64,000 nt of DNA from Escherichia coli. Its GTDB lineage: Bacteria; Pseudomonadota; Gammaproteobacteria; Enterobacterales; Enterobacteriaceae. The notes below the pieces were generated by a model. The model ran no database searches, was not told the origin of the DNA, and saw only the letters and a list, made by a program, of their open reading frames with translations. Where the stretch lies: assembly GCF_011045215.1 (NCBI RefSeq), contig NZ_CP049201.1; one strand, written 5' to 3'. Made by a program: the position numbers and the translations under genes. Of the stretch, positions 44,549 to 54,309 are shown one piece after another. Each line of letters begins with the position of its first letter. Position 1 is the stretch's first letter.

Positions 44549-45244
44549 ATGCTGAAGCGTTTCTTTATTACCGGTACAGACACTTCTGTAGGGAAAACGG
44601 TGGTTTCCCGCGCATTGCTACAAGCGTTAGCCTCCCAGGGAAAAACGGTTGCGGGATATAAACCCGTAGCGAAGGGGAGCAAAGAGACACCCGAAGGGCT
44701 GCGTAATAAAGATGCCCTGGTGTTGCAGAGTGTTTCAACCATCGAACTGCCTTATGAAGCAGTTAATCCTATCGCGTTAAGCGAAGAAGAAAGTAGCGTG
44801 GCGCACAGTTGCCCAATCAATTACACCCTCATTTCAAACGGCCTGGCAAACCTGACCGAAAAAGTCGATCATGTCGTGGTAGAAGGGACTGGCGGCTGGC
44901 GCAGTCTGATGAATGATTTGCGTCCACTCTCTGAATGGGTGGTGCAGGAACAACTGCCGGTGTTGATGGTTGTCGGTATTCAGGAAGGTTGCATTAACCA
45001 TGCACTGCTAACAGCTCAGGCGATTGCCAACGACGGGCTGCCGCTCATTGGCTGGGTGGCTAACCGAATCAACCCAGGACTGGCGCATTATGCGGAAATC
45101 ATTGATGTGCTCGGTAAAAAACTTCCGGCACCGCTCATTGGTGAACTGCCTTATCTGCCGCGCGCCGAACAGCGTGAACTGGGGCAATACATCCGCTTAG
45201 CTATGCTGCGCAGTGTGCTGGCGGTAGATAGAGTCACGGTGTAA
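44549..45244 (+). CDS. ynfK: YnfK, dethiobiotin synthetase paralog (BioD2)
   Basis: ORF 44537-45244; start taken at [25 protein letters not shown]... (P-loop GTDTSVGKT) giving 231 aa. Confidence 0.85.
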
Positions 45245-46453
45245 CATCCGCGAGATTACCGACGCAATTACGCAGGCAATCAATAAACCGGGGAGTAGCT
45301 GATACTCCCCGGTCATTTCACATATCATCAACGTCGACATAATCGGTGCGTGCGTGGTTGCCGCCAACAGTGTCGCCATCCCGGTCAATCCGAGTAAAAG
45401 CGTAATTTCTTCGCCGTCAGGGAACCATAATCCCAGGCTACGACCATACAACATGCCAATGGCAAGACCGATAAATAGCGTCGGTGTAAAGACACCACCG
45501 GGCGCGCCGGAACCGCTACTCGCCAGCACGGCACACAGTTTACAAAGGAAGATCCCGGCAATGATCATTAACAGTGGCGGGGCGGTTAAAAAGGATTGTA
45601 CGGTGCTATAGCCGTTGCCCCACACTGCAGGTGTGAACAGGGAAAGCAGACCCACGATCAACCCGCCTAGTGCCAGTTGCCAGGGCGGTGCAAGTTTGAG
45701 ACTCACAAATCCACGATGACAGGCGTTCATTAACGTTAACAACAGTGGTCCGCACAGACCTGCCAGCACACCTGTACTGATAATCAGCGCATAGTCACGA
45801 GCCTGAACCGTCACTGAGAGTTGTACGCTGTAGAGTAACGCGTCGCTATGATTAATCAGATTGCTAACCAGCAATGCCACGACGGCGGAAATAATCACCG
45901 GGCCGAGAGAGGCCAACATCATAGTGCCAAACAGCACTTCGGCTATAAATAAACTGCCAGCAAGCGGGGCACGATAGGCCGCAGCCATTCCCGCCGCGGC
46001 CCCACAGGCGATCCATAATTTCCACTCCTGGCGTGGCGTAAAACGTTGGGCAAAACAGGAGGCGGCAAGGACAGCTAAAAGAATCATCGCACCTTCGCGA
46101 CCAATTGCACTGCCGCTGGTTACTACCAGCAGAGAGGCAAGCGATTTAACCAGGCTTGCTGCGTAATCAAACTGACCCTCGGTTTGCAACGCTTCCATAT
46201 AATCGGTCGGCGCATGAGGGCGTTGCTGGGTAAATTTCTGCCAGCCCATCAGCAACAAACCCGCCGCCAGTCCGCCGAGCGCCGGAGTTAGCAGCCGTCG
46301 CCAGGGGGAAAGGTTTGTCGCTGCATTGACCAGACTGCCGGAGTCATTATTGAGGAACAACCACTCCAGTAGCAGCATCGTATGACGAAACCCGGCAACG
46401 GCAAAGGCCGCGAGAATACCGACGACTGTTGCGATAAGCAGACGGCGGAACAT
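45197..46453 (-). CDS. clcB: ClcB (YnfJ), CLC-family voltage-gated chloride channel/transporter
   Basis: ORF 45197-46513; start taken at [24 protein letters not shown]... giving 418 aa; GREGA-type CLC selectivity motif (GREGAMIL). Confidence 0.9.
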
Positions 46454-46646
46454 AGTGCGCAGATCCGGATAGGTGTGTAGATGATGCATGAGCAGAAATG
46501 GGCAATGAAACACGGGCGACTATTTTGCGGCAAAAGAGGCCAGCTGCAAAAGCAGTGCGTGCTTTAAGAGATAAAAAACGTGACACTGTAACCTATTATT
46601 GCCGAATTGCGCGTAATCGCCACTATCCGGCAATATTACGGTGATC

Positions 46647-47261
46647 CTATCGAAAGAGTGGTTTAACCGCGACAGGAATCAACAGTTGTGATTGCCATTG
46701 CGCCAGCGTTAAGCGAGCCAGTTCACCCAGTGCACGGTAGAAAGGGTGTTCTGCTTTTTCGATAAAAACGTCAAGAAAACGTGTTGACCACGGAAAAAGG
46801 TGCCATGCCAGCAATTCTTCGCATTCTGTCTGGCGACCATTCTCCGCCAACCACGCAGCCATCAACAGCAGTGAACCAAAATGATCTTCCGGTTCGTTTT
46901 GCTTCATTTCAAACTGAATGCCTTTCTCGCGCATCCACTGACGAAGTGCCAATGTTGAATCGCCAAACAGCACAGATTCGCGATCCAGCCAGACCGATCC
47001 CCACGGCGGAGACGGCAGTGCCCACGGGCCGACAAACAAACGCTGCCAGGCCTGGGCGTGAGTCTCTTCACACTGTGTCTGAAAAGCCGTCACCAGCGGC
47101 GCTAATGACGCTTCTGGTAGAGGCCACTGAGTTTCCCAGCCGTCACGGGTGAGTACCGCAACCAGAGGTGCGGCTTCCGCACTCTCTGGAGCGTAATAAA
47201 ACAGCGCGCCCAACACGCGCGCCGCGACAGAAAAATTATCTTGCTGTGAAAAATGGGTCAT
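46647..47261 (-). CDS. dmsD: DmsD, Tat proofreading chaperone for DMSO-reductase-family enzymes
   Basis: ORF 46647-47270; start taken at MTHFSQQDNFSVAARVLGALFYYAPESAEAAPL... giving 204 aa. Confidence 0.9.
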   Translation of the reverse strand: MTHFSQQDNFSVAARVLGALFYYAPESAEAAPLVAVLTRDGWETQWPLPEASLAPLVTAFQTQCEETHAQAWQRLFVGPWALPSPPWGSVWLDRESVLFGDSTLALRQWMREKGIQFEMKQNEPEDHFGSLLLMAAWLAENGRQTECEELLAWHLFPWSTRFLDVFIEKAEHPFYRALGELARLTLAQWQSQLLIPVAVKPLFR

Positions 47262-47303
47262 TCCTAACATCCTGAAATGTGCGGGTTGCCCCGCACCAAT
47301 TTG

Positions 47304-48158
47304 TTAACCTGCAATAGCCACTCCTACCGTCATGTGCAGGCCATAAAAGAGCACACGCCCGATCATCTCACCGCCAAGAATGAGGATTAACCCCAGAATA
47401 AGTCCGGCAACGTGAGGTTCACGGCGACGTATGAGCGGACAAAGCCAGCATCCTAGACCTGCACATAACAATACCACACGCCAGACCTGTAAGGAGGCGT
47501 AATCTGGTACCAGTGCGCTGGCTTGTTGCACGGATGAGTGAATAGACGACAGAGACAAACCTTGCAGCACAATCACCCCGGCACAAGCGATCAGCGCCAG
47601 AACGCTAATGATGGCAAATGGTGTGGTATTAAATGTAACGCGGGCTGCCCGCAGAATTGCGGCAGCAAGTATTGGACCACTCAACAATACCGTCAGGAAG
47701 AAAGCCAGCGTAGTGTAACCGTTATGCCAGGTTGGCACAGTGTCGATTTGATACACGCAGGTCATCATCCAGACGAAAATGACGCCGAGCGCCATGCTGA
47801 CAAGTAACCAGAGTTTCCCCAACGCTTGCGGCATTTTACCGATGACCGCCACCAGCCACCATAGTCCGCCAACGGCAAAAAATATGGAACCGGCAGCAAT
47901 CTCGTTACTCAGACCAGAAGCTCCGATTCGATTCAGCGAGTTAAACGCCCGCAGTGGCGATCCCAGGTGCATGACAGAGGCAATAAACCCGATGCCCATC
48001 AACAGCCAGAGGAAAAACATGCCACGAACAATGTGCTGACGGTCTGCGTCATTTTTGGCGGCGAACCAGCCAATTCCGCTAACAATCAGCGCGCCTACTA
48101 CGCATTGACCCAATACGGTAAAGATAACCAGTGGCCATTCATGCCATCCATTTCCCAT
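47304..48158 (-). CDS. ynfH: YnfH, DmsC-like membrane anchor subunit
   Basis: ORF 47304-48398 is upstream-extended; start taken at MGNGWHEWPLVIFTVLGQCVVGALIV... giving 284 aa. Confidence 0.9.
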   Translation of the reverse strand: MGNGWHEWPLVIFTVLGQCVVGALIVSGIGWFAAKNDADRQHIVRGMFFLWLLMGIGFIASVMHLGSPLRAFNSLNRIGASGLSNEIAAGSIFFAVGGLWWLVAVIGKMPQALGKLWLLVSMALGVIFVWMMTCVYQIDTVPTWHNGYTTLAFFLTVLLSGPILAAAILRAARVTFNTTPFAIISVLALIACAGVIVLQGLSLSSIHSSVQQASALVPDYASLQVWRVVLLCAGLGCWLCPLIRRREPHVAGLILGLILILGGEMIGRVLFYGLHMTVGVAIAG

Positions 48159-48159
48159 T

Positions 48160-48777
48160 TTACACTTCCTCCGGATTAGCCAGATAACCAGTGGTATCGC
48201 CGGTCGGGCGGCTGTTGGCGTTAGGTTTGATAACGATATTGGGTTTTGTGAAATGCGCGCGCGGCAGTGGCGCGACGGCAGCCAGAGTGCCGTGCTTCTG
48301 GCGCAGCTCTTCAATTGGACCGAACTCAAGTGCACGCAGCGGGCAGGATTCGACGCATATGGGTTGTTTCCCCTCGGCGACGCGCGAATAACAACCATCG
48401 CACTTCGTCATGTGCCCTTTTTCAGCATTGTACTGTGGCGCGCCGTACGGACAAGCCATGTGGCAGTAGCGGCAGCCGATACAAACATCTTCATCAACCA
48501 CCACAAAGCCATCTTCACGCTTATGCATTGCGCCGCTGGGGCAGACTTTTGTACATGCGGGGTCATCGCAATGGTTACAGGAGATGGAGAGATAATAAGC
48601 GAACACGTTCTGGTGCCAGACGCCATTATCTTCCTGCCAGTCGCCGCCAGCATATTCATAAATACGGCGGAAACTGACTTCCGGGCCAAGATCTTTAAAA
48701 TCTTTGCACGCCAGTTCGCAGGTTTTACAGCCAGTGCAGCGGCTGGAATCGATAAAAAATCCATATTGTGTGGTCAT
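48160..48777 (-). CDS. ynfG: YnfG, DmsB-like 4Fe-4S ferredoxin subunit
   Basis: 205-aa ORF MTTQYGFFIDSSRCTGCKTCELACKDFKDLGPEVSFRRI... with four Cys clusters. Confidence 0.9.
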   Translation of the reverse strand: MTTQYGFFIDSSRCTGCKTCELACKDFKDLGPEVSFRRIYEYAGGDWQEDNGVWHQNVFAYYLSISCNHCDDPACTKVCPSGAMHKREDGFVVVDEDVCIGCRYCHMACPYGAPQYNAEKGHMTKCDGCYSRVAEGKQPICVESCPLRALEFGPIEELRQKHGTLAAVAPLPRAHFTKPNIVIKPNANSRPTGDTTGYLANPEEV

Positions 48778-48787
48778 GGGCTACTCC

Positions 48788-51214
48788 TTAAACCTTTTCG
48801 ATCTGGACAAGATTGCTGTGCGACGGGTTTCCCTTTGCCAGCGGTGAAGGGCGGTGAGAGGTCAGAATATTAATACTGCCGCCGTGATCGACCCGGTCAC
48901 CAAACATATCCGCTTTAAGCCACGCACCTTGCCCGATGGCGGTAACGCCAGGCAGAATACGCGGAGTCACTTTTGCGGCAATCAGCATTTCTCCATTATT
49001 GTTAAATACCCGCACGGTATCGCCATGACGGATACCGCGAGCCTGAGCATCAATGGGGTTGATCCACACCTCTTGTGGGCAGGCCTGCTGTAACACATCA
49101 ATATTGCCGTAGCTGGAGTGGGTACGCGCTTTGTAGTGGAAGCCCGTTAACTGCAGTGGATAGGTTTTCCGCAGGGGATCGTCCCAGCCATCAAAACCTG
49201 GGGTATACGCAGGAAGGGGATGAATAATTTCATCTTTTTTCAATTCCCAGGTATCTGCAATCTTCGCCAGTCGTTCAGAATAAATTTCGATTTTCCCCGA
49301 AGGTGTTTTCAACGGGTTTGCCTGTGGATCTTCACGGAATGCGCGGAAAGCGACGTAGTGTTCTTCCGGGCATTTTTTCTTAAAGATCCCGGTCGTTTTC
49401 ATCTCCTCGTAGTCGGGCATCTCAGGGTTACGTTCCTTCGTTTTCGCATGGAGATATTTGATCCATTCATGCTGACTGCGACCTTCAGTAAAGGTTTGAT
49501 AAACGTCCGGTCCTAAGCGGTTGGCGACTTCACTCAGCATCCAGTAGATGGGTTTGCGTTCAAATTTTGCTGAGGTTGCGGGTTGGGCGAGGATCACATA
49601 GCCCATATTCCCTGCAGATTCATGAGAGATAAGGTCTTCTTGCTCTGTTGGCATCAGGTCGGGCAACAGGATATCGCAATACTTAGCCGAGGCCGTCATG
49701 AAGTGGTCAATGCCAACAATCATCTCGCACTTGCTGTCATCCTGAAGCACCTCATGGGTGTGATTGATGTCGCCATGTTGATTGATCAATGTGTTACTGG
49801 CGTAGCACCATAAAAACTTGATGGGGACATCCAGTTTTTCTTTTCCACGAACACCATCACGGGTCGCGGTCATTTCCGTACCATGGTCGATGGCATCTGT
49901 CCATGTAAAGACGGAAATCTGCGTTTTAACAGGATTCTCGAGCATCGGGAACCATTCTACCCCCAGATCCCAGCTACCTTCGCGTACGCCTGAGTTGCCG
50001 CCGTTTATGCCGACGTTACCGGTGAGAACGGAAAGCATGGCAATAGCGCGGGATGTTTGTTCGCCGTTGGAGTGTCGTTGTGGCCCCCAACCCTGACAAA
50101 TATAAGCAGGTTTTGCTGAACCGATCTCTCGTGCCAACTGGATAATTTTTTCTGCCGGGATGCTGGTGATTTTTGCTGCCCATTCCGGCGTTTTAGCTAT
50201 GCCGTCAGGCCCTTCGCCCAGAATATAGGCTTTATAATGCGCGTTACGTGGTGCGTTGGCGGGAAGCGTTTTTTCATCGTAACCAACACAATATTTGTCG
50301 AGAAATGGCTGATCGACCATGTTTTCAGTAATCAGTACCCAGGCAATCGCACAGGCCAGTGCGCCATCGGTGCCAGGGCGAATGGGCAGCCATTCATCTT
50401 CACGTCCGGCAGCTGTGTCGTTATAACGTGGATCGATGACGATCATGCGTGCGTTTGAACGTTCGCGGGCTTGCTCGACGTAGTAAGTGACACCACCACC
50501 GCTCATCCGCGTTTCTGCCGGGTTATTTCCGAACATAACGACCAGTTTCGTATTGGCGATATCATCCGGGCTGTTGCCATCATTGGCACCGAACATATAA
50601 CTCATTGCGGCACTGATCTGTGCGGTACTGTAGCTGCCATAGCGACTGAGAAAACCACCGCAAGAGTTCATCAGACGGTACGGGACGTTTGAGTTGGTGA
50701 TGTTTCCGCCATCTACACCTGTTCCGTACAGGACATGTACAGCCTCATTGCCGTAATCTTTTAGGATCTGCCGAAGATTATCACTGATGGTATCCAGGGC
50801 TTCGTCCCAACTTATCCGTTCAAATTTACCTTCACCGCGCTTGCCGACGCGCTTCATGGGATATTTCAACCTATCAGGATGATTCATCCGTCGGCGGATA
50901 GAGCGCCCGCGTAAACACGCTCGAACCTGATGATTACCGTAGACGTCGTCACCTGTCGTATCAGACTCCACCCAGTACACGGTGTCATCTTTCACATGCA
51001 AACGTAACAGACAGCGGCTCCCGCAGTTAACGGTGCAGGAACTCCAGACCGCTTTCTCTTCTACCGGAGCCTCTGCCGCCCGGACCATTTGGGAAAATGG
51101 CAGAGTGAAAGCACTGCTTGCCAGCGCAAGACTGCCAAGTGCGGAGGTTTTCATCAGACTTCTACGGCTGATTTCAGCCTTCATGAGCGCCTCTGTGGTA
51201 TGGATTTTCATCAT
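48788..51214 (-). CDS. ynfF: YnfF, DMSO-reductase-family molybdopterin oxidoreductase catalytic subunit (Tat-exported)
   Basis: 808-aa ORF; twin-arginine signal (SRRSLMKTSALGSLALASSAFTLPFSQMVRA); paralog of ynfE/DmsA. True start may be the second Met. Confidence 0.9.
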   Translation of the reverse strand: MMKIHTTEALMKAEISRRSLMKTSALGSLALASSAFTLPFSQMVRAAEAPVEEKAVWSSCTVNCGSRCLLRLHVKDDTVYWVESDTTGDDVYGNHQVRACLRGRSIRRRMNHPDRLKYPMKRVGKRGEGKFERISWDEALDTISDNLRQILKDYGNEAVHVLYGTGVDGGNITNSNVPYRLMNSCGGFLSRYGSYSTAQISAAMSYMFGANDGNSPDDIANTKLVVMFGNNPAETRMSGGGVTYYVEQARERSNARMIVIDPRYNDTAAGREDEWLPIRPGTDGALACAIAWVLITENMVDQPFLDKYCVGYDEKTLPANAPRNAHYKAYILGEGPDGIAKTPEWAAKITSIPAEKIIQLAREIGSAKPAYICQGWGPQRHSNGEQTSRAIAMLSVLTGNVGINGGNSGVREGSWDLGVEWFPMLENPVKTQISVFTWTDAIDHGTEMTATRDGVRGKEKLDVPIKFLWCYASNTLINQHGDINHTHEVLQDDSKCEMIVGIDHFMTASAKYCDILLPDLMPTEQEDLISHESAGNMGYVILAQPATSAKFERKPIYWMLSEVANRLGPDVYQTFTEGRSQHEWIKYLHAKTKERNPEMPDYEEMKTTGIFKKKCPEEHYVAFRAFREDPQANPLKTPSGKIEIYSERLAKIADTWELKKDEIIHPLPAYTPGFDGWDDPLRKTYPLQLTGFHYKARTHSSYGNIDVLQQACPQEVWINPIDAQARGIRHGDTVRVFNNNGEMLIAAKVTPRILPGVTAIGQGAWLKADMFGDRVDHGGSINILTSHRPSPLAKGNPSHSNLVQIEKV

Positions 51215-51271
51215 TACTCACTTATTGCTTTTCAAACAAAATGTCATGCCAGAATTTATGTTTGTAGTGGG

Positions 51272-53698
51272 TTATATTTTTTCGATCTCGACCAGATTAG
51301 TGTGCTGCGGGTTTCCCTTCGCCAGTGGTGAAGGGCGCAGAGTGGTTAGCGTATTCACACAGCCTCCATGGTCGATTTTATCGCCAGACATATCGGCCTC
51401 GTGCCAGGCTCCCTGGCCCATAGCGCTAACTCCAGGGAGAATACGTGGTGTCACTTTGGCTGGTAGCCGAACTTCGCCACGATGGTTAAACACCCGCACC
51501 ATATCGCCGTTGGCAATCCCACGTTTCTGCGCATCTATAGGGTTGATCCACACCTCCTGACGGCAGGCAGCCTTCAGGAGATCAATATTGCCGTAGGTCG
51601 AGTGAGTACGGGATTTGTAATGGAAACCAAACAGTTGCAGTGGGAAGGTTCTACGTTCAGGGGAGTCCCAGCCTTCAAAGGTTGAGGCATAAACTGGCAG
51701 TGGGCTTATCACTTCATCTTTTTCCAGTTCCCAGGTACGGGCAATTTCCGCCAGCCTGCTGGAATAAATTTCAATCTTACCGGAAGGCGTTTTAAGTGGA
51801 TTTGCCTCGGGGTCGTCACGAAATGCTTTGTAGGCGACAAAATGACCATTGGGATCTTTACGCTTATAGATACCCATTTTTTTCAGTTCGTCGTAAGACG
51901 GTAACGCCGGATCTTTGGCAAGCATTTTGGCGTACAGATGTTGTAACCATTGTTCCTGCGTGCGACCTTCTGTGAACTTTTGATAGACGTCAGGTCCAAG
52001 ACGTTTCGCGACTTCACTCAGGATCCAGTAAATCGGTTTGCGTTCGAATTTTTCGCTGGTGACAGGCTGGAGGAAAATGAGATATCCCATGTTACCGGCG
52101 TAGTCGTTAGGAATAATATCTTCCTGCTCAACGGTCATCAGGTCTGGCAGCAGAATGTCGGCATATTTTGCCGATGAGGTCATAAAGTTTTCGATGACCA
52201 CAATCATTTCGCATTTCGATTCGTCTTGCAGAATTTCATGCGTTTTGTTGATGTCAGAATGCTGATTAACGAGGGTATTTCCCGCGTAGTTCCAGATGAA
52301 CTTAATGGGCACATCCAGTTTATCTTTGCCCCGGACGCCGTCGCGGATTGCCGTCATTTGCGGGCCATGATCGATAGCATCTGTCCAGCTGAAGCAGGAG
52401 ATTGACGTTTTGACCGGATTGTCCAGCACCGGCAGGCGTTCTATGGTAATGGTATAGGTCGATTCACGCGCGCCACTATTTCCGCCGCTGATGCCGACAT
52501 TGCCCGTCAGAATAGGCAACATAGCAATAGCGCGTGCGGTCAGCTCGCCGTTTGCCTGGCGTTGTGGCCCCCAGCCCTGGCAGATATAAGCGGGTTTTGC
52601 TGTGCCAATTTCACGCGCCAGTTTGATGATACGGTCCACCGGGATACCGGTAATTTGCGAAGCCCACTGCGGCGTTTTCGCTGTTTTATCGTCACCTTCA
52701 CCAAGAATATAGGCTTTATAGTGACCATTTTTGGGGGCATCTGCGGGTAAGGTTTTTTCGTCATAGCCGACGCAGTATTTATCGAGAAAAGGTTGATCAA
52801 CGAGATTTTCGTTAATCAATACCCAGGCAATACCCGCAACCAGCGCGGCATCGGTGCCCGGGCGAATAGGAAGCCATTCATCTTCACGACCAGCAGCCGT
52901 ATCGGTATATCGCGGATCGATAACAATCATTTTTGCGTTCGATTTTTCGCGCGCTTTTTCAAGAAGATAAGTGATGCCACCGCCGCTCATGCGGGTTTCT
53001 GCCGGGTTGTTACCAAACATCACGACCAGCTTGCTGTTTTCAATATCCGTGGTGCTGTTGCCATCATTACTGCCGTAGGTGTAGGGCATGGCACAGGAAA
53101 TTTGCGCGGTGCTGTAGGAGCCATACTGATTGAGTGAACCGCCGTAGCAGTTCATCAGGCGTTTGACCGCCGAGGCTGATGGCGAAGAGCGGGTCATATT
53201 GCCGCCAACGATCCCCGAAGAGTACTGAATATATACAGCCTCATTGCCATATTGTTCGACGGTTTTCTTCAGGCTACTGGCGATAGTATCCAGGGCTTCA
53301 TCCCAGCTAATCCGTTCGAATTTGCCTTCGCCGCGTTTGCCCGCGCGTTTCATTGGGTAATTCAAGCGATCGGGATGATTAATACGCCGGCGGATGGAGC
53401 GACCGCGCAAACAGGCGCGTACCTGATGGTTGCCGTACTCATCGCTGCCGGTATTGTCAGTTTCCACCCAGGTCACTTCATTATCTTTAACATGTAGACG
53501 AAGTGCACAGCGGCTACCACAGTTGACGGAACAGGCACCCCAGACCACTTTTTCGCTGGCCTGTTGTACCGCTGCCGCTGCACTGCGCAGGGTGAACGGT
53601 AAAGAAAAACCGCCTGCAGCCAGGGCCAGAGAACCTATCGCGGTAGATTTAACGAGTGTTCTGCGGCTGATGCCCACCATTTGTTCATTTTTGGACAT
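51272..53698 (-). CDS. ynfE: YnfE, DMSO-reductase-family molybdopterin oxidoreductase (putative selenate reductase, Tat-exported)
   Basis: 808-aa ORF; twin-arginine signal (SRRTLVKSTAIGSLALAAGGFSLPFTLRSAAA); tandem paralog of ynfF. Confidence 0.9.
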   Translation of the reverse strand: MSKNEQMVGISRRTLVKSTAIGSLALAAGGFSLPFTLRSAAAAVQQASEKVVWGACSVNCGSRCALRLHVKDNEVTWVETDNTGSDEYGNHQVRACLRGRSIRRRINHPDRLNYPMKRAGKRGEGKFERISWDEALDTIASSLKKTVEQYGNEAVYIQYSSGIVGGNMTRSSPSASAVKRLMNCYGGSLNQYGSYSTAQISCAMPYTYGSNDGNSTTDIENSKLVVMFGNNPAETRMSGGGITYLLEKAREKSNAKMIVIDPRYTDTAAGREDEWLPIRPGTDAALVAGIAWVLINENLVDQPFLDKYCVGYDEKTLPADAPKNGHYKAYILGEGDDKTAKTPQWASQITGIPVDRIIKLAREIGTAKPAYICQGWGPQRQANGELTARAIAMLPILTGNVGISGGNSGARESTYTITIERLPVLDNPVKTSISCFSWTDAIDHGPQMTAIRDGVRGKDKLDVPIKFIWNYAGNTLVNQHSDINKTHEILQDESKCEMIVVIENFMTSSAKYADILLPDLMTVEQEDIIPNDYAGNMGYLIFLQPVTSEKFERKPIYWILSEVAKRLGPDVYQKFTEGRTQEQWLQHLYAKMLAKDPALPSYDELKKMGIYKRKDPNGHFVAYKAFRDDPEANPLKTPSGKIEIYSSRLAEIARTWELEKDEVISPLPVYASTFEGWDSPERRTFPLQLFGFHYKSRTHSTYGNIDLLKAACRQEVWINPIDAQKRGIANGDMVRVFNHRGEVRLPAKVTPRILPGVSAMGQGAWHEADMSGDKIDHGGCVNTLTTLRPSPLAKGNPQHTNLVEIEKI

Positions 53699-53896
53699 AA
53701 CTCACTCCCTGTTCTTTATCGTTATATAAATGTTTATATATTGAATATTTAGCGCGCTAACAATAGAGGGAGTCTACCCATTTTGGGTTAAGAATTATTA
53801 ATCCACATCAATAGAAGGGTATGAGTAATATGGTGGGATTATGTTGTATGTTCAAATCGCCGGATGTGTCATATCCGGCGTTCAGTCGATAATGTG

Positions 53897-54202
53897 TTAC
53901 TGCGGTTCGGCAGGCGCGCCATCCTGGGTAGACTGCGCGGGAGCAGAGACGTTACCGCTGGTGGTGCGGGTGTAGAGAATTTTATGCGTATCATTAGCAC
54001 AATGCCCGACGACCTGGGAATCAGGCTGATCAACCTGGTCATTGGGTACAATACTTAACGTGAAGCTGCTTTCGGGTACGCCATTATTGATAATGCGCTG
54101 TGATATATCGCTCTGTATGCGCTCACAGGATCCCGGCGCGGCGAGTACCGTGGGTGAGGAGAGGGCGAGCAGAAGCGCGGCACAGCAGGCTGAGAGTTTC
54201 AT
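53897..54202 (-). CDS. ynfD: YnfD, DUF1161 secreted protein
   Basis: ORF 53897-54244; start taken at MKLSACCAALLLALSSPTVLA... (signal peptide); the adjacent Met at 54205 is an alternative start. Confidence 0.8.
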   Translation of the reverse strand: MKLSACCAALLLALSSPTVLAAPGSCERIQSDISQRIINNGVPESSFTLSIVPNDQVDQPDSQVVGHCANDTHKILYTRTTSGNVSAPAQSTQDGAPAEPQ

Positions 54203-54309
54203 CATAAGCTCCTTACGCGAAGATAACTTCTTTAAGCATAGCATTTAACGTGTAAAGTACTGTATTTGCTACTATGATTGAGAATCATCTCTACTCTCTG
54301 GTGACTGAT

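What the first reader, a model, noticed from the sequence alone, without database searches (positions are those of the whole stretch)
48788..53698. Tandem paralogous Tat-exported molybdoenzyme genes ynfE and ynfF
Two 808-aa DmsA-like catalytic subunits lie head to tail, each with a twin-arginine signal peptide, followed by a single set of ynfG, ynfH and dmsD. The approximately 2.4-kb direct duplication is a substrate for homologous recombination and copy-number change.
Basis: partly seen in the sequence, partly recalled or inferred. Interest (0 to 1): 0.25.

Follow-up and report, generated by a model that had tools for sequence, protein, structure and literature searches.

The report
Known ynfE–ynfF tandem paralogues
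This is the ordinary, intact E. coli selenate-reductase operon with two old, diverged copies of its catalytic gene; other strains show that the two copies do occasionally fuse into one hybrid gene, but rarely and only at very short shared stretches.

Summary
Window 46647-53698 (minus strand) holds the canonical E. coli ynfE-ynfF-ynfG-ynfH-dmsD operon. It is 99.0% identical to K-12 over ynfE and ynfF, and all five genes are intact.

YnfE and YnfF are ancient paralogues:
- 71% amino-acid and 70% nucleotide identity
- synonymous sites saturated (dS about 2.1, dN 0.21)
- longest identical run 17 nt
- orthologues in Salmonella at 87% and 92% identity, so the duplication predates that split and the copies have not been homogenised.

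Population data show it is rare but real. Of 5,318 complete E. coli genomes carrying the locus, 10 (two junction types) have one 2,427-bp in-register ynfE'-'ynfF hybrid in place of both genes. Wider protein data add at least 9 E. coli and 5 Salmonella junction intervals. Four junctions read at DNA level lie in identical tracts of 8, 9, 11 and 14 nt. No reciprocal triplication was found. Out-of-register fusions, internal deletions and IS insertions are at least as common.

Verdict: a known operon, and a weak but genuine substrate for short-homology deletion. Low interest.

The parts
51272..53698 (-). ynfE, catalytic subunit paralogue 1 (808 aa), Tat-exported Mo-bisPGD selenate/tellurate reductase subunit
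   Evidence: The ORF is. NCBIfam NF041885 YnfE scores 1794, above its cutoff of 1675. Pfam finds PF04879, PF00384 and PF01568. RefSeq annotates the 99.4%-identical locus as ynfE.
48788..51211 (-). ynfF, catalytic subunit paralogue 2 (807 aa from the RefSeq start; an in-frame ATG at 51214 gives 808 aa)
   Evidence: The ORF is. NCBIfam NF041884 YnfF scores 1771, above its cutoff of 1650. The Pfam domains match those of ynfE.
51215..51271 (-). ynfE-ynfF intergenic spacer (57-60 nt) with a GAG-rich ribosome-binding region before the ynfF start; no terminator-like site
   Evidence: The sequence was read. No terminator-like hit falls in this interval.
48160..48777 (-). ynfG, four-cluster [4Fe-4S] electron-transfer subunit (DmsB type)
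   Evidence: TIGR02951 scores 264.8, above its cutoff of 214. PF13247 is found. The gene starts 10 nt after the ynfF stop.
47304..48158 (-). ynfH, membrane anchor / quinol-oxidising subunit (DmsC type)
   Evidence: PF04976 DmsC matches at 4.5e-128.
46647..47261 (-). dmsD, Tat proofreading chaperone for the DmsA, YnfE and YnfF signal peptides
   Evidence: NF008632 scores 347, above its cutoff of 162. Chaperone binding to the three signal peptides is reported in PMC5203670.
53648..53668 (-). codons of the YnfE twin-arginine motif SRRTLVK (aa 11-17)
51149..51169 (-). codons of the YnfF twin-arginine motif SRRSLMK (aa 16-22)
53798..53811 (-). FNR-box-like palindrome TTGATGTGGATTAA, about 106 bp upstream of the ynfE ATG; candidate anaerobic activator site
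   Evidence: It has one mismatch to TTGAT-N4-ATCAA. The window as a whole holds 8 such sites against 3.1 expected by chance. Function is inferred from the operon's reported anaerobic induction (PMC5203670); it was not tested here.
52995..53008 (-). 14-nt tract AACCCGGCAGAAAC in ynfE (gene nt 691-704), identical and in register with ynfF 50511-50524; crossover site of the JCC-EE 7-type hybrid
52545..52552 (-). 8-nt tract AACGGCGA in ynfE (gene nt 1147-1154), identical to ynfF 50061-50068; crossover site of the ECONIH4-type hybrid
52311..52321 (-). 11-nt tract AAACTGGATGT in ynfE (gene nt 1378-1388), identical to ynfF 49827-49837; crossover site of hybrid P0058 (locus L010)
52136..52144 (-). 9-nt tract GACCTGATG in ynfE (gene nt 1555-1563), identical to ynfF 49652-49660; crossover site of hybrid P0052 (locus L011)

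Best explanation
The window carries the canonical, intact E. coli ynfEFGH-dmsD operon.

How the enzyme works (inferred from family membership and literature, not assayed here):
- YnfE and YnfF are alternative Tat-exported Mo-bisPGD catalytic subunits. Each has an N-terminal [4Fe-4S] cluster motif and a serine at the position of the molybdenum ligand.
- Either subunit docks on the shared YnfG ferredoxin and YnfH membrane anchor. The complex is a DmsABC-like quinol:selenate/tellurate reductase with a periplasmic active site.
- DmsD proofreads the signal peptides of YnfE and YnfF.

The two genes are ancient paralogues that evolve independently under purifying selection. The duplication predates the Escherichia-Salmonella split, and the window's copy shows no trace of recent exchange.

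As a recombination substrate the pair is weak but real. At low frequency, a deletion between short identical in-register tracts (8-14 nt) removes exactly one repeat period. This leaves a single in-frame ynfE(5')-ynfF(3') chimeric gene in front of ynfG.

The most likely mechanism is short-homology, RecA-independent misalignment (replication slippage, template switching or single-strand annealing), followed by retention of the in-frame products. Classical RecA-mediated homologous recombination is less likely. This mechanistic step is inferred, not shown.
For: Identity of the operon:
- 99.4% best match and 99.0% to K-12 over ynfE-ynfF.
- Annotation of the matched RefSeq locus.
- NCBIfam and Pfam hits for all five proteins.
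- Tat motifs, the CX3CX3C...C cluster motif, and a Ser196 that aligns with Ser147 of the solved Rhodobacter DMSO reductase 1eu1. That Ser147 is the Mo ligand is my own knowledge.

Function from the literature:
- In Salmonella, YnfE is the main enzyme, YnfF contributes little, and DmsD binds both signal peptides (PMC5203670).
- Tellurate reduction is attributed to ynfEF (reference 47 in PMC12096835).

Age of the duplication:
- 70% nucleotide identity, dS about 2.1, dN 0.21.
- Salmonella orthologues are 87% (YnfE) and 92% (YnfF) identical, against 71% between YnfE and YnfF.
- Salmonella's own YnfE and YnfF are also 71% identical.

Collapse events:
- A chimeric probe found 10 complete genomes with the ynfE 5' and ynfF 3' parts inside exactly 2,427 bp.
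- In those genomes a single gene lies between ynfD and ynfG.
- Each hybrid shows one clean E-to-F switch.
- The ECONIH4-type hybrid protein occurs on 68 contigs.
- Further hybrids give 9 E. coli and 5 Salmonella junction intervals. The single-gene context was confirmed for three of them.
- DNA-level junction tracts are 8, 9, 11 and 14 nt.

Short-homology model:
- Exact ynfE/ynfF matches of at least 8 nt number 51 in register and 128 out of register. About 43 of the out-of-register ones should be in frame.
- That predicts roughly equal numbers of in-register hybrids and long out-of-register in-frame fusions. Both classes are seen, with about ten distinct kinds each.
Against: - No enzymology or expression data were generated here. 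The roles of YnfE and YnfF rest on the literature.
- Whether the chimeric enzymes are active is unknown. Persistence of an intact 808-aa ORF in one lineage is only suggestive.
- The RecA-independent mechanism is inferred from tract length alone, using four junctions.
- Parental alleles of the hybrid lineages were not available, so tract lengths are measured against the window's alleles and could be off by a few bases.
- Hybrids whose junction lies in the outer thirds of the gene stay inside the main 90%-identity protein clusters. The number of events is therefore a lower bound, and the apparent central clustering of junctions is a detection artefact.
Confidence: 0.85

Rival explanations
1. The two genes are simply diverged paralogues and are recombinationally inert. 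The tandem arrangement has no consequence for genome stability.
For: Nucleotide identity is 70%, the longest identical run is 17 nt and dS is saturated. Of 5,426 complete genomes, 5,126 keep at least 80% of the two-gene region in one place. There is no reciprocal triplication. YnfE and YnfF are equally 71% identical in Salmonella, so there has been no concerted evolution.
Against: Ten complete genomes and many draft genomes carry a single in-register ynfE'-'ynfF hybrid between ynfD and ynfG. These show at least 9 junction intervals in E. coli and 5 in Salmonella.
Confidence: 0.08
2. The hybrid genes seen in other genomes are assembly or annotation artefacts, with two similar genes collapsed by the assembler. 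They would then say nothing about real recombination.
For: Many of the extra hybrids come from single draft assemblies with 1-2 contigs each.
Against: - The two best-studied hybrids are in closed chromosomes: ECONIH4, six 0H isolates and CAVP776 share one junction, and JCC-EE 7 and CP137696 share the other.
- The exact ECONIH4-type protein is on 68 contigs from several sources.
- ynfE and ynfF share no identical run longer than 17 nt. To my knowledge that is shorter than the usual assembler k-mers, so a graph collapse is not expected.
- Flanks are collinear, with ynfD on one side and ynfG on the other.
Confidence: 0.04
3. The collapses arise by classical RecA-dependent homologous (homeologous) recombination between the aligned 2.4-kb paralogues. 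The short identical tract only marks where the heteroduplex was resolved.
For: All 808-aa hybrids are perfectly in register and show one clean switch. In-register alignment is what a homology search over the whole gene would give.
Against: - Identical tracts at the junctions are 8-14 nt and the longest available is 17 nt. To my knowledge this is below the reported minimal processing segment for RecA/RecBCD.
- Divergence of 30% is strongly anti-recombinogenic when mismatch repair is active (my own knowledge).
- Out-of-register in-frame fusions and a junction with no homology (AZ 191) are about as frequent as in-register hybrids. That is what a register-blind short-homology process followed by selection predicts.
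Confidence: 0.2

Closest known systems
E. coli K-12 ynfEFGH-dmsD operon (b1587-b1591), selenate/tellurate reductase
   Same: Same genes in the same order and orientation, with the same neighbours (clcB downstream, ynfD/ynfC/speG upstream). Identity over ynfE-ynfF is 99.0% to BW25113.
   Different: Only about 1% allelic divergence. The best match is a baboon isolate from The Gambia, PapM-32-1, at 99.3-99.4%.
DmsABC dimethyl sulfoxide reductase of E. coli
   Same: Same three-subunit architecture: a Tat-exported Mo-bisPGD subunit with an FS0 cluster, a four-cluster ferredoxin and a DmsC-type anchor. It uses the same DmsD chaperone. Both YnfE and YnfF pass the shared subfamily model TIGR02166.
   Different: DmsABC has one catalytic gene, not two. 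YnfE and YnfF score 1342 and 1316 on the DmsA model, below its cutoff of 1600. The reported substrate is selenate/tellurate rather than S- and N-oxides.
Salmonella enterica ynfEFGH-dmsD selenate reductase
   Same: Orthologous operon. YnfE is 87% and YnfF 92% identical to the window's proteins. Identity between YnfE and YnfF is also 71% there. The same kind of in-register ynfE'-'ynfF hybrids occurs.
   Different: YnfE is 812 aa with a different n-region in its signal peptide. In one lineage dmsA has also recombined with the locus.
Chimeric genes from unequal crossover between tandem paralogues (for example human CYP11B1/CYP11B2 or Lepore delta-beta globin; PMC8750845 and PMC4041002 were listed)
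   Same: An in-register 5'-upstream/3'-downstream hybrid replaces two tandem paralogues by deletion of exactly one repeat unit.
   Different: To my knowledge, those classic cases involve paralogues of 90-95% identity and long identical tracts. Here identity is 70% and the junction tracts are 8-14 nt, which points to short-homology deletion.

Membership tests
DmsA/YnfE/YnfF catalytic subunits (TIGR02166; Mo-bisPGD 'DMSO reductase' superfamily) | Whole-protein score above the curated cutoff of the YnfE or YnfF model, and of the subfamily model | tested here: met
   YnfE scores 1794 against a cutoff of 1675. YnfF scores 1771 against 1650. Each fails the other's cutoff. TIGR02166 scores are 1395 and 1285 against 778.
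DmsA/YnfE/YnfF catalytic subunits | Twin-arginine (Tat) signal peptide | tested here: met
   SRRTLVK at aa 11-17 and SRRSLMK at aa 16-22, each followed by a hydrophobic stretch. DmsD binding to these peptides is reported in PMC5203670. Export itself was not tested.
DmsA/YnfE/YnfF catalytic subunits | N-terminal FS0 [4Fe-4S] cysteine motif, the molybdopterin oxidoreductase domain and the MGD-binding domain | tested here: met
   CX3CX3C at aa 56-64 (YnfE) and 60-68 (YnfF), with a fourth Cys at 96 and 100. PF04879, PF00384 and PF01568 are found in both proteins.
DmsA/YnfE/YnfF catalytic subunits | Serine at the molybdenum-ligand position | tested here: met
   Ser196 in the motif GSYSTAQ, present in both proteins, aligns with Ser147 of Rhodobacter DMSO reductase 1eu1. 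That Ser147 is the Mo ligand is my own knowledge.
DmsA/YnfE/YnfF catalytic subunits | Operon partners: DmsB-type ferredoxin, DmsC-type anchor and DmsD chaperone | tested here: met
   TIGR02951 at 264.8 bits, PF04976 at 4.5e-128 and NF008632 at 347 bits.
DmsA/YnfE/YnfF catalytic subunits | Bound Mo-bisPGD cofactor and selenate/tellurate reductase activity | not testable with these tools
   Literature only: PMC12724226, PMC5203670 and PMC12096835.
Recombinogenic direct repeat (substrate of RecA-dependent homologous recombination) | High nucleotide identity, with uninterrupted identical tracts at least as long as the minimal processing segment (about 23-27 bp; my own knowledge) | tested here: not met
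   Identity is 69.8% and the longest identical run is 17 nt. Only 10 runs reach 14 nt.
Recombinogenic direct repeat | Recombinant deletion products (one hybrid copy) exist in natural populations | tested here: met
   Ten of 5,318 complete E. coli genomes carry one. Junctions were mapped. Further hybrids in E. coli and Salmonella are.
Recombinogenic direct repeat | Reciprocal product (three copies, with a ynfF'-'ynfE hybrid in the middle), or gene-conversion patches | tested here: not met
   No genome joined ynfF 5' to ynfE 3' for crossovers within gene nt 500-1927. At most 11 genomes have a second copy of the ynfE-ynfF junction region, and these were not resolved. Identity along the window's two genes is even at 0.59-0.78 per 150 nt beyond the divergent signal-peptide segment (0.49), so there is no conversion tract.

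The most novel reading that the evidence does not exclude
Short-homology deletion between the 70%-identical ynfE and ynfF repeatedly creates chimeric catalytic subunits: N-terminal third to two-thirds from YnfE, the rest from YnfF. These chimeras would be functional and are kept in natural E. coli and Salmonella lineages. The same paralogue family (dmsA with ynfE) can also mediate a large chromosomal rearrangement in Salmonella. Together these would be a natural domain-shuffling experiment in a respiratory molybdoenzyme. I found no report of it in the searchable literature. The genomic events themselves are very likely real. The uncertain step is that the chimeras are active and selected.
Probability: 0.4. 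Interest if true: 0.4.

Novelty: already known. Interest (0 to 1): 0.22.

Why it matters
For this window, little: it is a textbook operon in its normal, intact state.

The follow-up has some value in three ways:
- It gives a measured example of how far tandem paralogues can diverge (30%) and still collapse into in-frame chimeras in nature, and at what tract lengths (8-14 nt).
- It explains why annotation pipelines label some E. coli proteins only as 'DmsA/YnfE/YnfF family'. The ECONIH4-type hybrid fails both the YnfE and YnfF cutoffs.
- It supplies ready-made natural chimeras for asking which part of YnfE or YnfF sets substrate specificity and expression.

Tried and rejected
- Reciprocal triplication. 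I probed for a ynfF 5'/ynfE 3' hybrid and no genome joined the two pieces. The two top hits (H161, H162) were internal deletions, not reciprocal hybrids.
- The roughly 10% of genomes with only 83-86% coverage. I first suspected these were ynfE/ynfF recombinants. They are a ynfF pseudogene with two internal deletions, ynfF nt 717-1297 and 2072-2345, unrelated to ynfE.
- AZ 191. It looked like a third hybrid, but it is an out-of-register join (ynfE nt 834 to ynfF nt 282) with no microhomology, on that pseudogene background.
- MB07152. Its loss of most of the locus is IS1-associated.
- Gene conversion inside the window. Sliding identity shows no elevated tract.
- Sigma-70 promoter scan. There was nothing convincing upstream of ynfE. 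Only an FNR-like box was found.
- Literature search. No paper in the library combines ynfE or ynfF with chimera, fusion or pseudogene terms. The library is incomplete, so this is not proof of novelty.
- A cross-genus DNA scan (genome contigs) was considered and not run. Two protein searches answered the age question more cheaply.
Full report
**1. What is in the window**

ORF listing shows two 808-aa ORFs head to tail on the minus strand, at 51272-53698 and 48788-51214. Downstream on that strand follow ORFs of 205, 284 and 204 aa.

Megablast against 5,426 complete E. coli genomes matched 5,424 of them. The best hit is strain PapM-32-1 at 99.4%. The annotation of that locus reads ynfE, ynfF, ynfG, ynfH, dmsD, flanked by clcB downstream and ynfD/ynfC/speG upstream. 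RefSeq starts ynfF at the second ATG (51211, 807 aa). Over ynfE and ynfF the window is 99.0% identical to K-12 BW25113.

**2. Family assignment**

- Each large protein passes only its own curated NCBIfam cutoff. YnfE scores 1794 against 1675, and YnfF scores 1771 against 1650. Each fails the other's cutoff and the DmsA cutoff. Both pass the shared subfamily model TIGR02166.
- Pfam finds the Fe4S4, molybdopterin and MGD-binding domains in both proteins. It also finds a DmsB-type dicluster domain in YnfG, DmsC in YnfH and the NarJ/DmsD fold in DmsD.
- Both catalytic subunits carry a twin-arginine motif (SRRTLVK, SRRSLMK) and a CX3CX3C...C cluster motif.
- Both carry Ser196, which aligns with Ser147 of the solved Rhodobacter DMSO reductase 1eu1. 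That Ser147 is the Mo ligand is my own knowledge.
- Gene spacing is tight: 57-60 nt between ynfE and ynfF, 10 nt before ynfG, 1 nt before ynfH and 42 nt before dmsD. No terminator-like site lies between ynfE and ynfF. This is consistent with one transcript.
- An FNR-like box with one mismatch lies about 106 bp upstream of ynfE.
- The literature describes the operon as an anaerobically induced, Tat- and DmsD-dependent selenate (and tellurate) reductase. YnfE and YnfF are paralogous isoenzymes, and YnfE is dominant in Salmonella (PMC5203670, PMC12724226, PMC12096835).

**3. How similar are the two copies**

- Protein identity is 71.2% and nucleotide identity 69.8%. By codon position, identity is 79%, 84% and 47%.
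- Identity is evenly spread along the gene at 0.59-0.78 per 150 nt, apart from 0.49 in the first 150 nt (the divergent signal-peptide region).
- The longest identical run is 17 nt.
- Nei-Gojobori estimates give dS about 2.1 (saturated) and dN 0.21.
- Orthologues are much closer than the paralogues. Salmonella YnfE is 87% identical. Enterobacter, Klebsiella and Lelliottia YnfE are 85-86% identical. Salmonella YnfF is 92% identical.
- Salmonella's own YnfE and YnfF are also 71% identical.

The duplication is therefore older than the split of these genera, and the two copies have not been homogenised.

**4. Population test**

I tested the prediction directly on the complete-genome set.

- **Whole two-gene query.** 5,126 genomes keep at least 80% of it in one place, and 104 have no match.
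- **A large class at 83-86% coverage.** This class makes up about a tenth of the sampled rows. It has a ynfF pseudogene with two internal deletions (ynfF nt 717-1297 and 2072-2345), unrelated to ynfE.
- **Other lesions.** These are IS150, IS3 and IS1 insertions or IS-associated deletions.
- **Collapse probe.** I built a probe of the last 1,000 nt of ynfF plus the first 1,000 nt of ynfE. In a normal genome the two halves lie too far apart for the tool to join them, so only a collapsed locus gives full coverage. Ten genomes gave full coverage within exactly 2,427 bp, and one gave 78%.
- **Context.** In ECONIH4 and in JCC-EE 7 a single 808-aa gene lies between ynfD and ynfG.
- **Site-by-site comparison** with the window's ynfE and ynfF shows one clean switch in each hybrid:
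  - between gene nt 1146 and 1155 (8-nt tract AACGGCGA) in the ECONIH4 type, found in 8 genomes
  - between nt 690 and 705 (14-nt tract AACCCGGCAGAAAC) in the JCC-EE 7 type, found in 2 genomes
- **Third candidate.** AZ 191 is an out-of-register join with no microhomology, on the pseudogene background.
- **Reciprocal probe** (ynfF 5' plus ynfE 3'). It joined in no genome. At most 11 genomes have a second copy of the ynfE-ynfF junction region, and I did not resolve those.

**5. Wider data**

- The exact ECONIH4-type protein is on 68 contigs, and the JCC-EE 7-type protein is on 2.
- PGAP names the ECONIH4-type protein only as 'DmsA/YnfE/YnfF family'. It fails both the YnfE cutoff (1616 against 1675) and the YnfF cutoff (1643 against 1650).
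- Two protein searches returned further E. coli 808-aa proteins of intermediate identity.
- Mapping against the parental proteins gives nine junction intervals in YnfE numbering: 222-242, 339-344, 344-347, 366-381, 382-386, 426-432, 451-459, 459-468 and 513-522.
- Some of these junctions occur on different allelic backgrounds.
- Salmonella shows five junction intervals.
- All hybrids run from YnfE at the N-terminus to YnfF at the C-terminus, as deletion between direct repeats requires.
- The single-gene context was confirmed for two more E. coli hybrids and one Salmonella hybrid.
- Their DNA junctions lie in tracts of 11 and 9 nt.
- The apparent central clustering of junctions is a detection artefact. 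Hybrids with a junction in the outer thirds of the gene stay more than 90% identical to one parent, so they remain hidden inside its cluster. JCC-EE 7, which sits in the main YnfF cluster, is an example.

**6. Mechanism**

- The same searches show about ten kinds of long (946-1,206 aa) in-frame but out-of-register ynfE-ynfF fusions, and two near-register fusions with 26-31 aa missing.
- Exact matches of at least 8 nt between ynfE and ynfF number 51 in register and 128 out of register. Matches of at least 12 nt are all in register.
- If deletions form at any short identical tract, and only in-frame products are visible as proteins, the expected ratio is about 51 in-register to 43 out-of-register in-frame. 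This is close to what is seen.
- The junction tracts are 8-14 nt and the longest available tract is 17 nt.
- Together these favour short-homology, RecA-independent deletion (slippage, template switching or annealing), followed by retention of in-frame products.
- Classical homologous recombination remains possible. I put it at about 0.2. It can only be separated by genetics.

**7. Verdict**

The pair is a real but weak substrate for collapse: about 0.2% of complete genomes, with recurrent events in draft data. The collapses occur at very short tracts, and no expansion was seen.

Natural YnfE/YnfF chimeras do not appear in the searchable literature. They are a modest by-product worth recording. 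Whether they are active enzymes is untested.

Noticed in passing
L013 6001-8457 (Salmonella enterica GCA_011748485.1; protein P0195, on 64 contigs): A three-way mosaic gene. The N-terminal ~220-250 aa are DmsA-like (568 bits on the DmsA model against 354 and 331 on YnfE and YnfF). Residues 221-635 are YnfE-like, and residues from 651 onward are YnfF-like. The gene sits directly after serS, the normal neighbour of dmsA, and is followed by ynfG-ynfH-dmsD. This implies recombination between the distant dmsA and ynf loci. Because the two operons lie on opposite strands in LT2 (my own knowledge), the likely result is a large inversion.
   Followed up: partly
L002/L009 (NZ_AP022171.1), equivalent to window 48788-51214: About a tenth of complete E. 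coli genomes carry ynfF as a pseudogene with two internal deletions (gene nt 717-1297 and 2072-2345), next to an intact ynfE. Examples are WP5-S18-ESBL-09, Ecol_656 and MNCRE44. In these lineages YnfE is the only catalytic subunit.
   Followed up: partly
Proteins P0032-P0048 (E. coli; P0047 on 95 contigs, P0038 on 33): Long in-frame but out-of-register ynfE-ynfF fusion ORFs of 946-1,206 aa carry duplicated domain segments. P0031 (1,220 aa) is instead an internal tandem duplication within ynfE.
   Followed up: partly
Equivalent to window 48788-53698 in other genomes (H7-H10, H20, H70/L003, H166-H168): IS3-family, IS150 and IS1 insertions interrupt ynfE or ynfF in several lineages, including O145 strains and laboratory strain TG1. 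In MB07152 an IS1-associated deletion removes everything from ynfF to ydfJ.
   Followed up: partly
window 53897-54244 and 45197-46513: The longest ORFs for ynfD (115 aa) and clcB (438 aa) extend upstream of the RefSeq starts (101 aa and 430 aa). This is a matter of start-codon choice only.
   Followed up: no
whole window: TTGAT-N4-ATCAA with at most one mismatch occurs 8 times in the window against 3.1 expected, and none of 100 shuffles reached 8. Only the site at 53798-53811 upstream of ynfE was examined.
   Followed up: no
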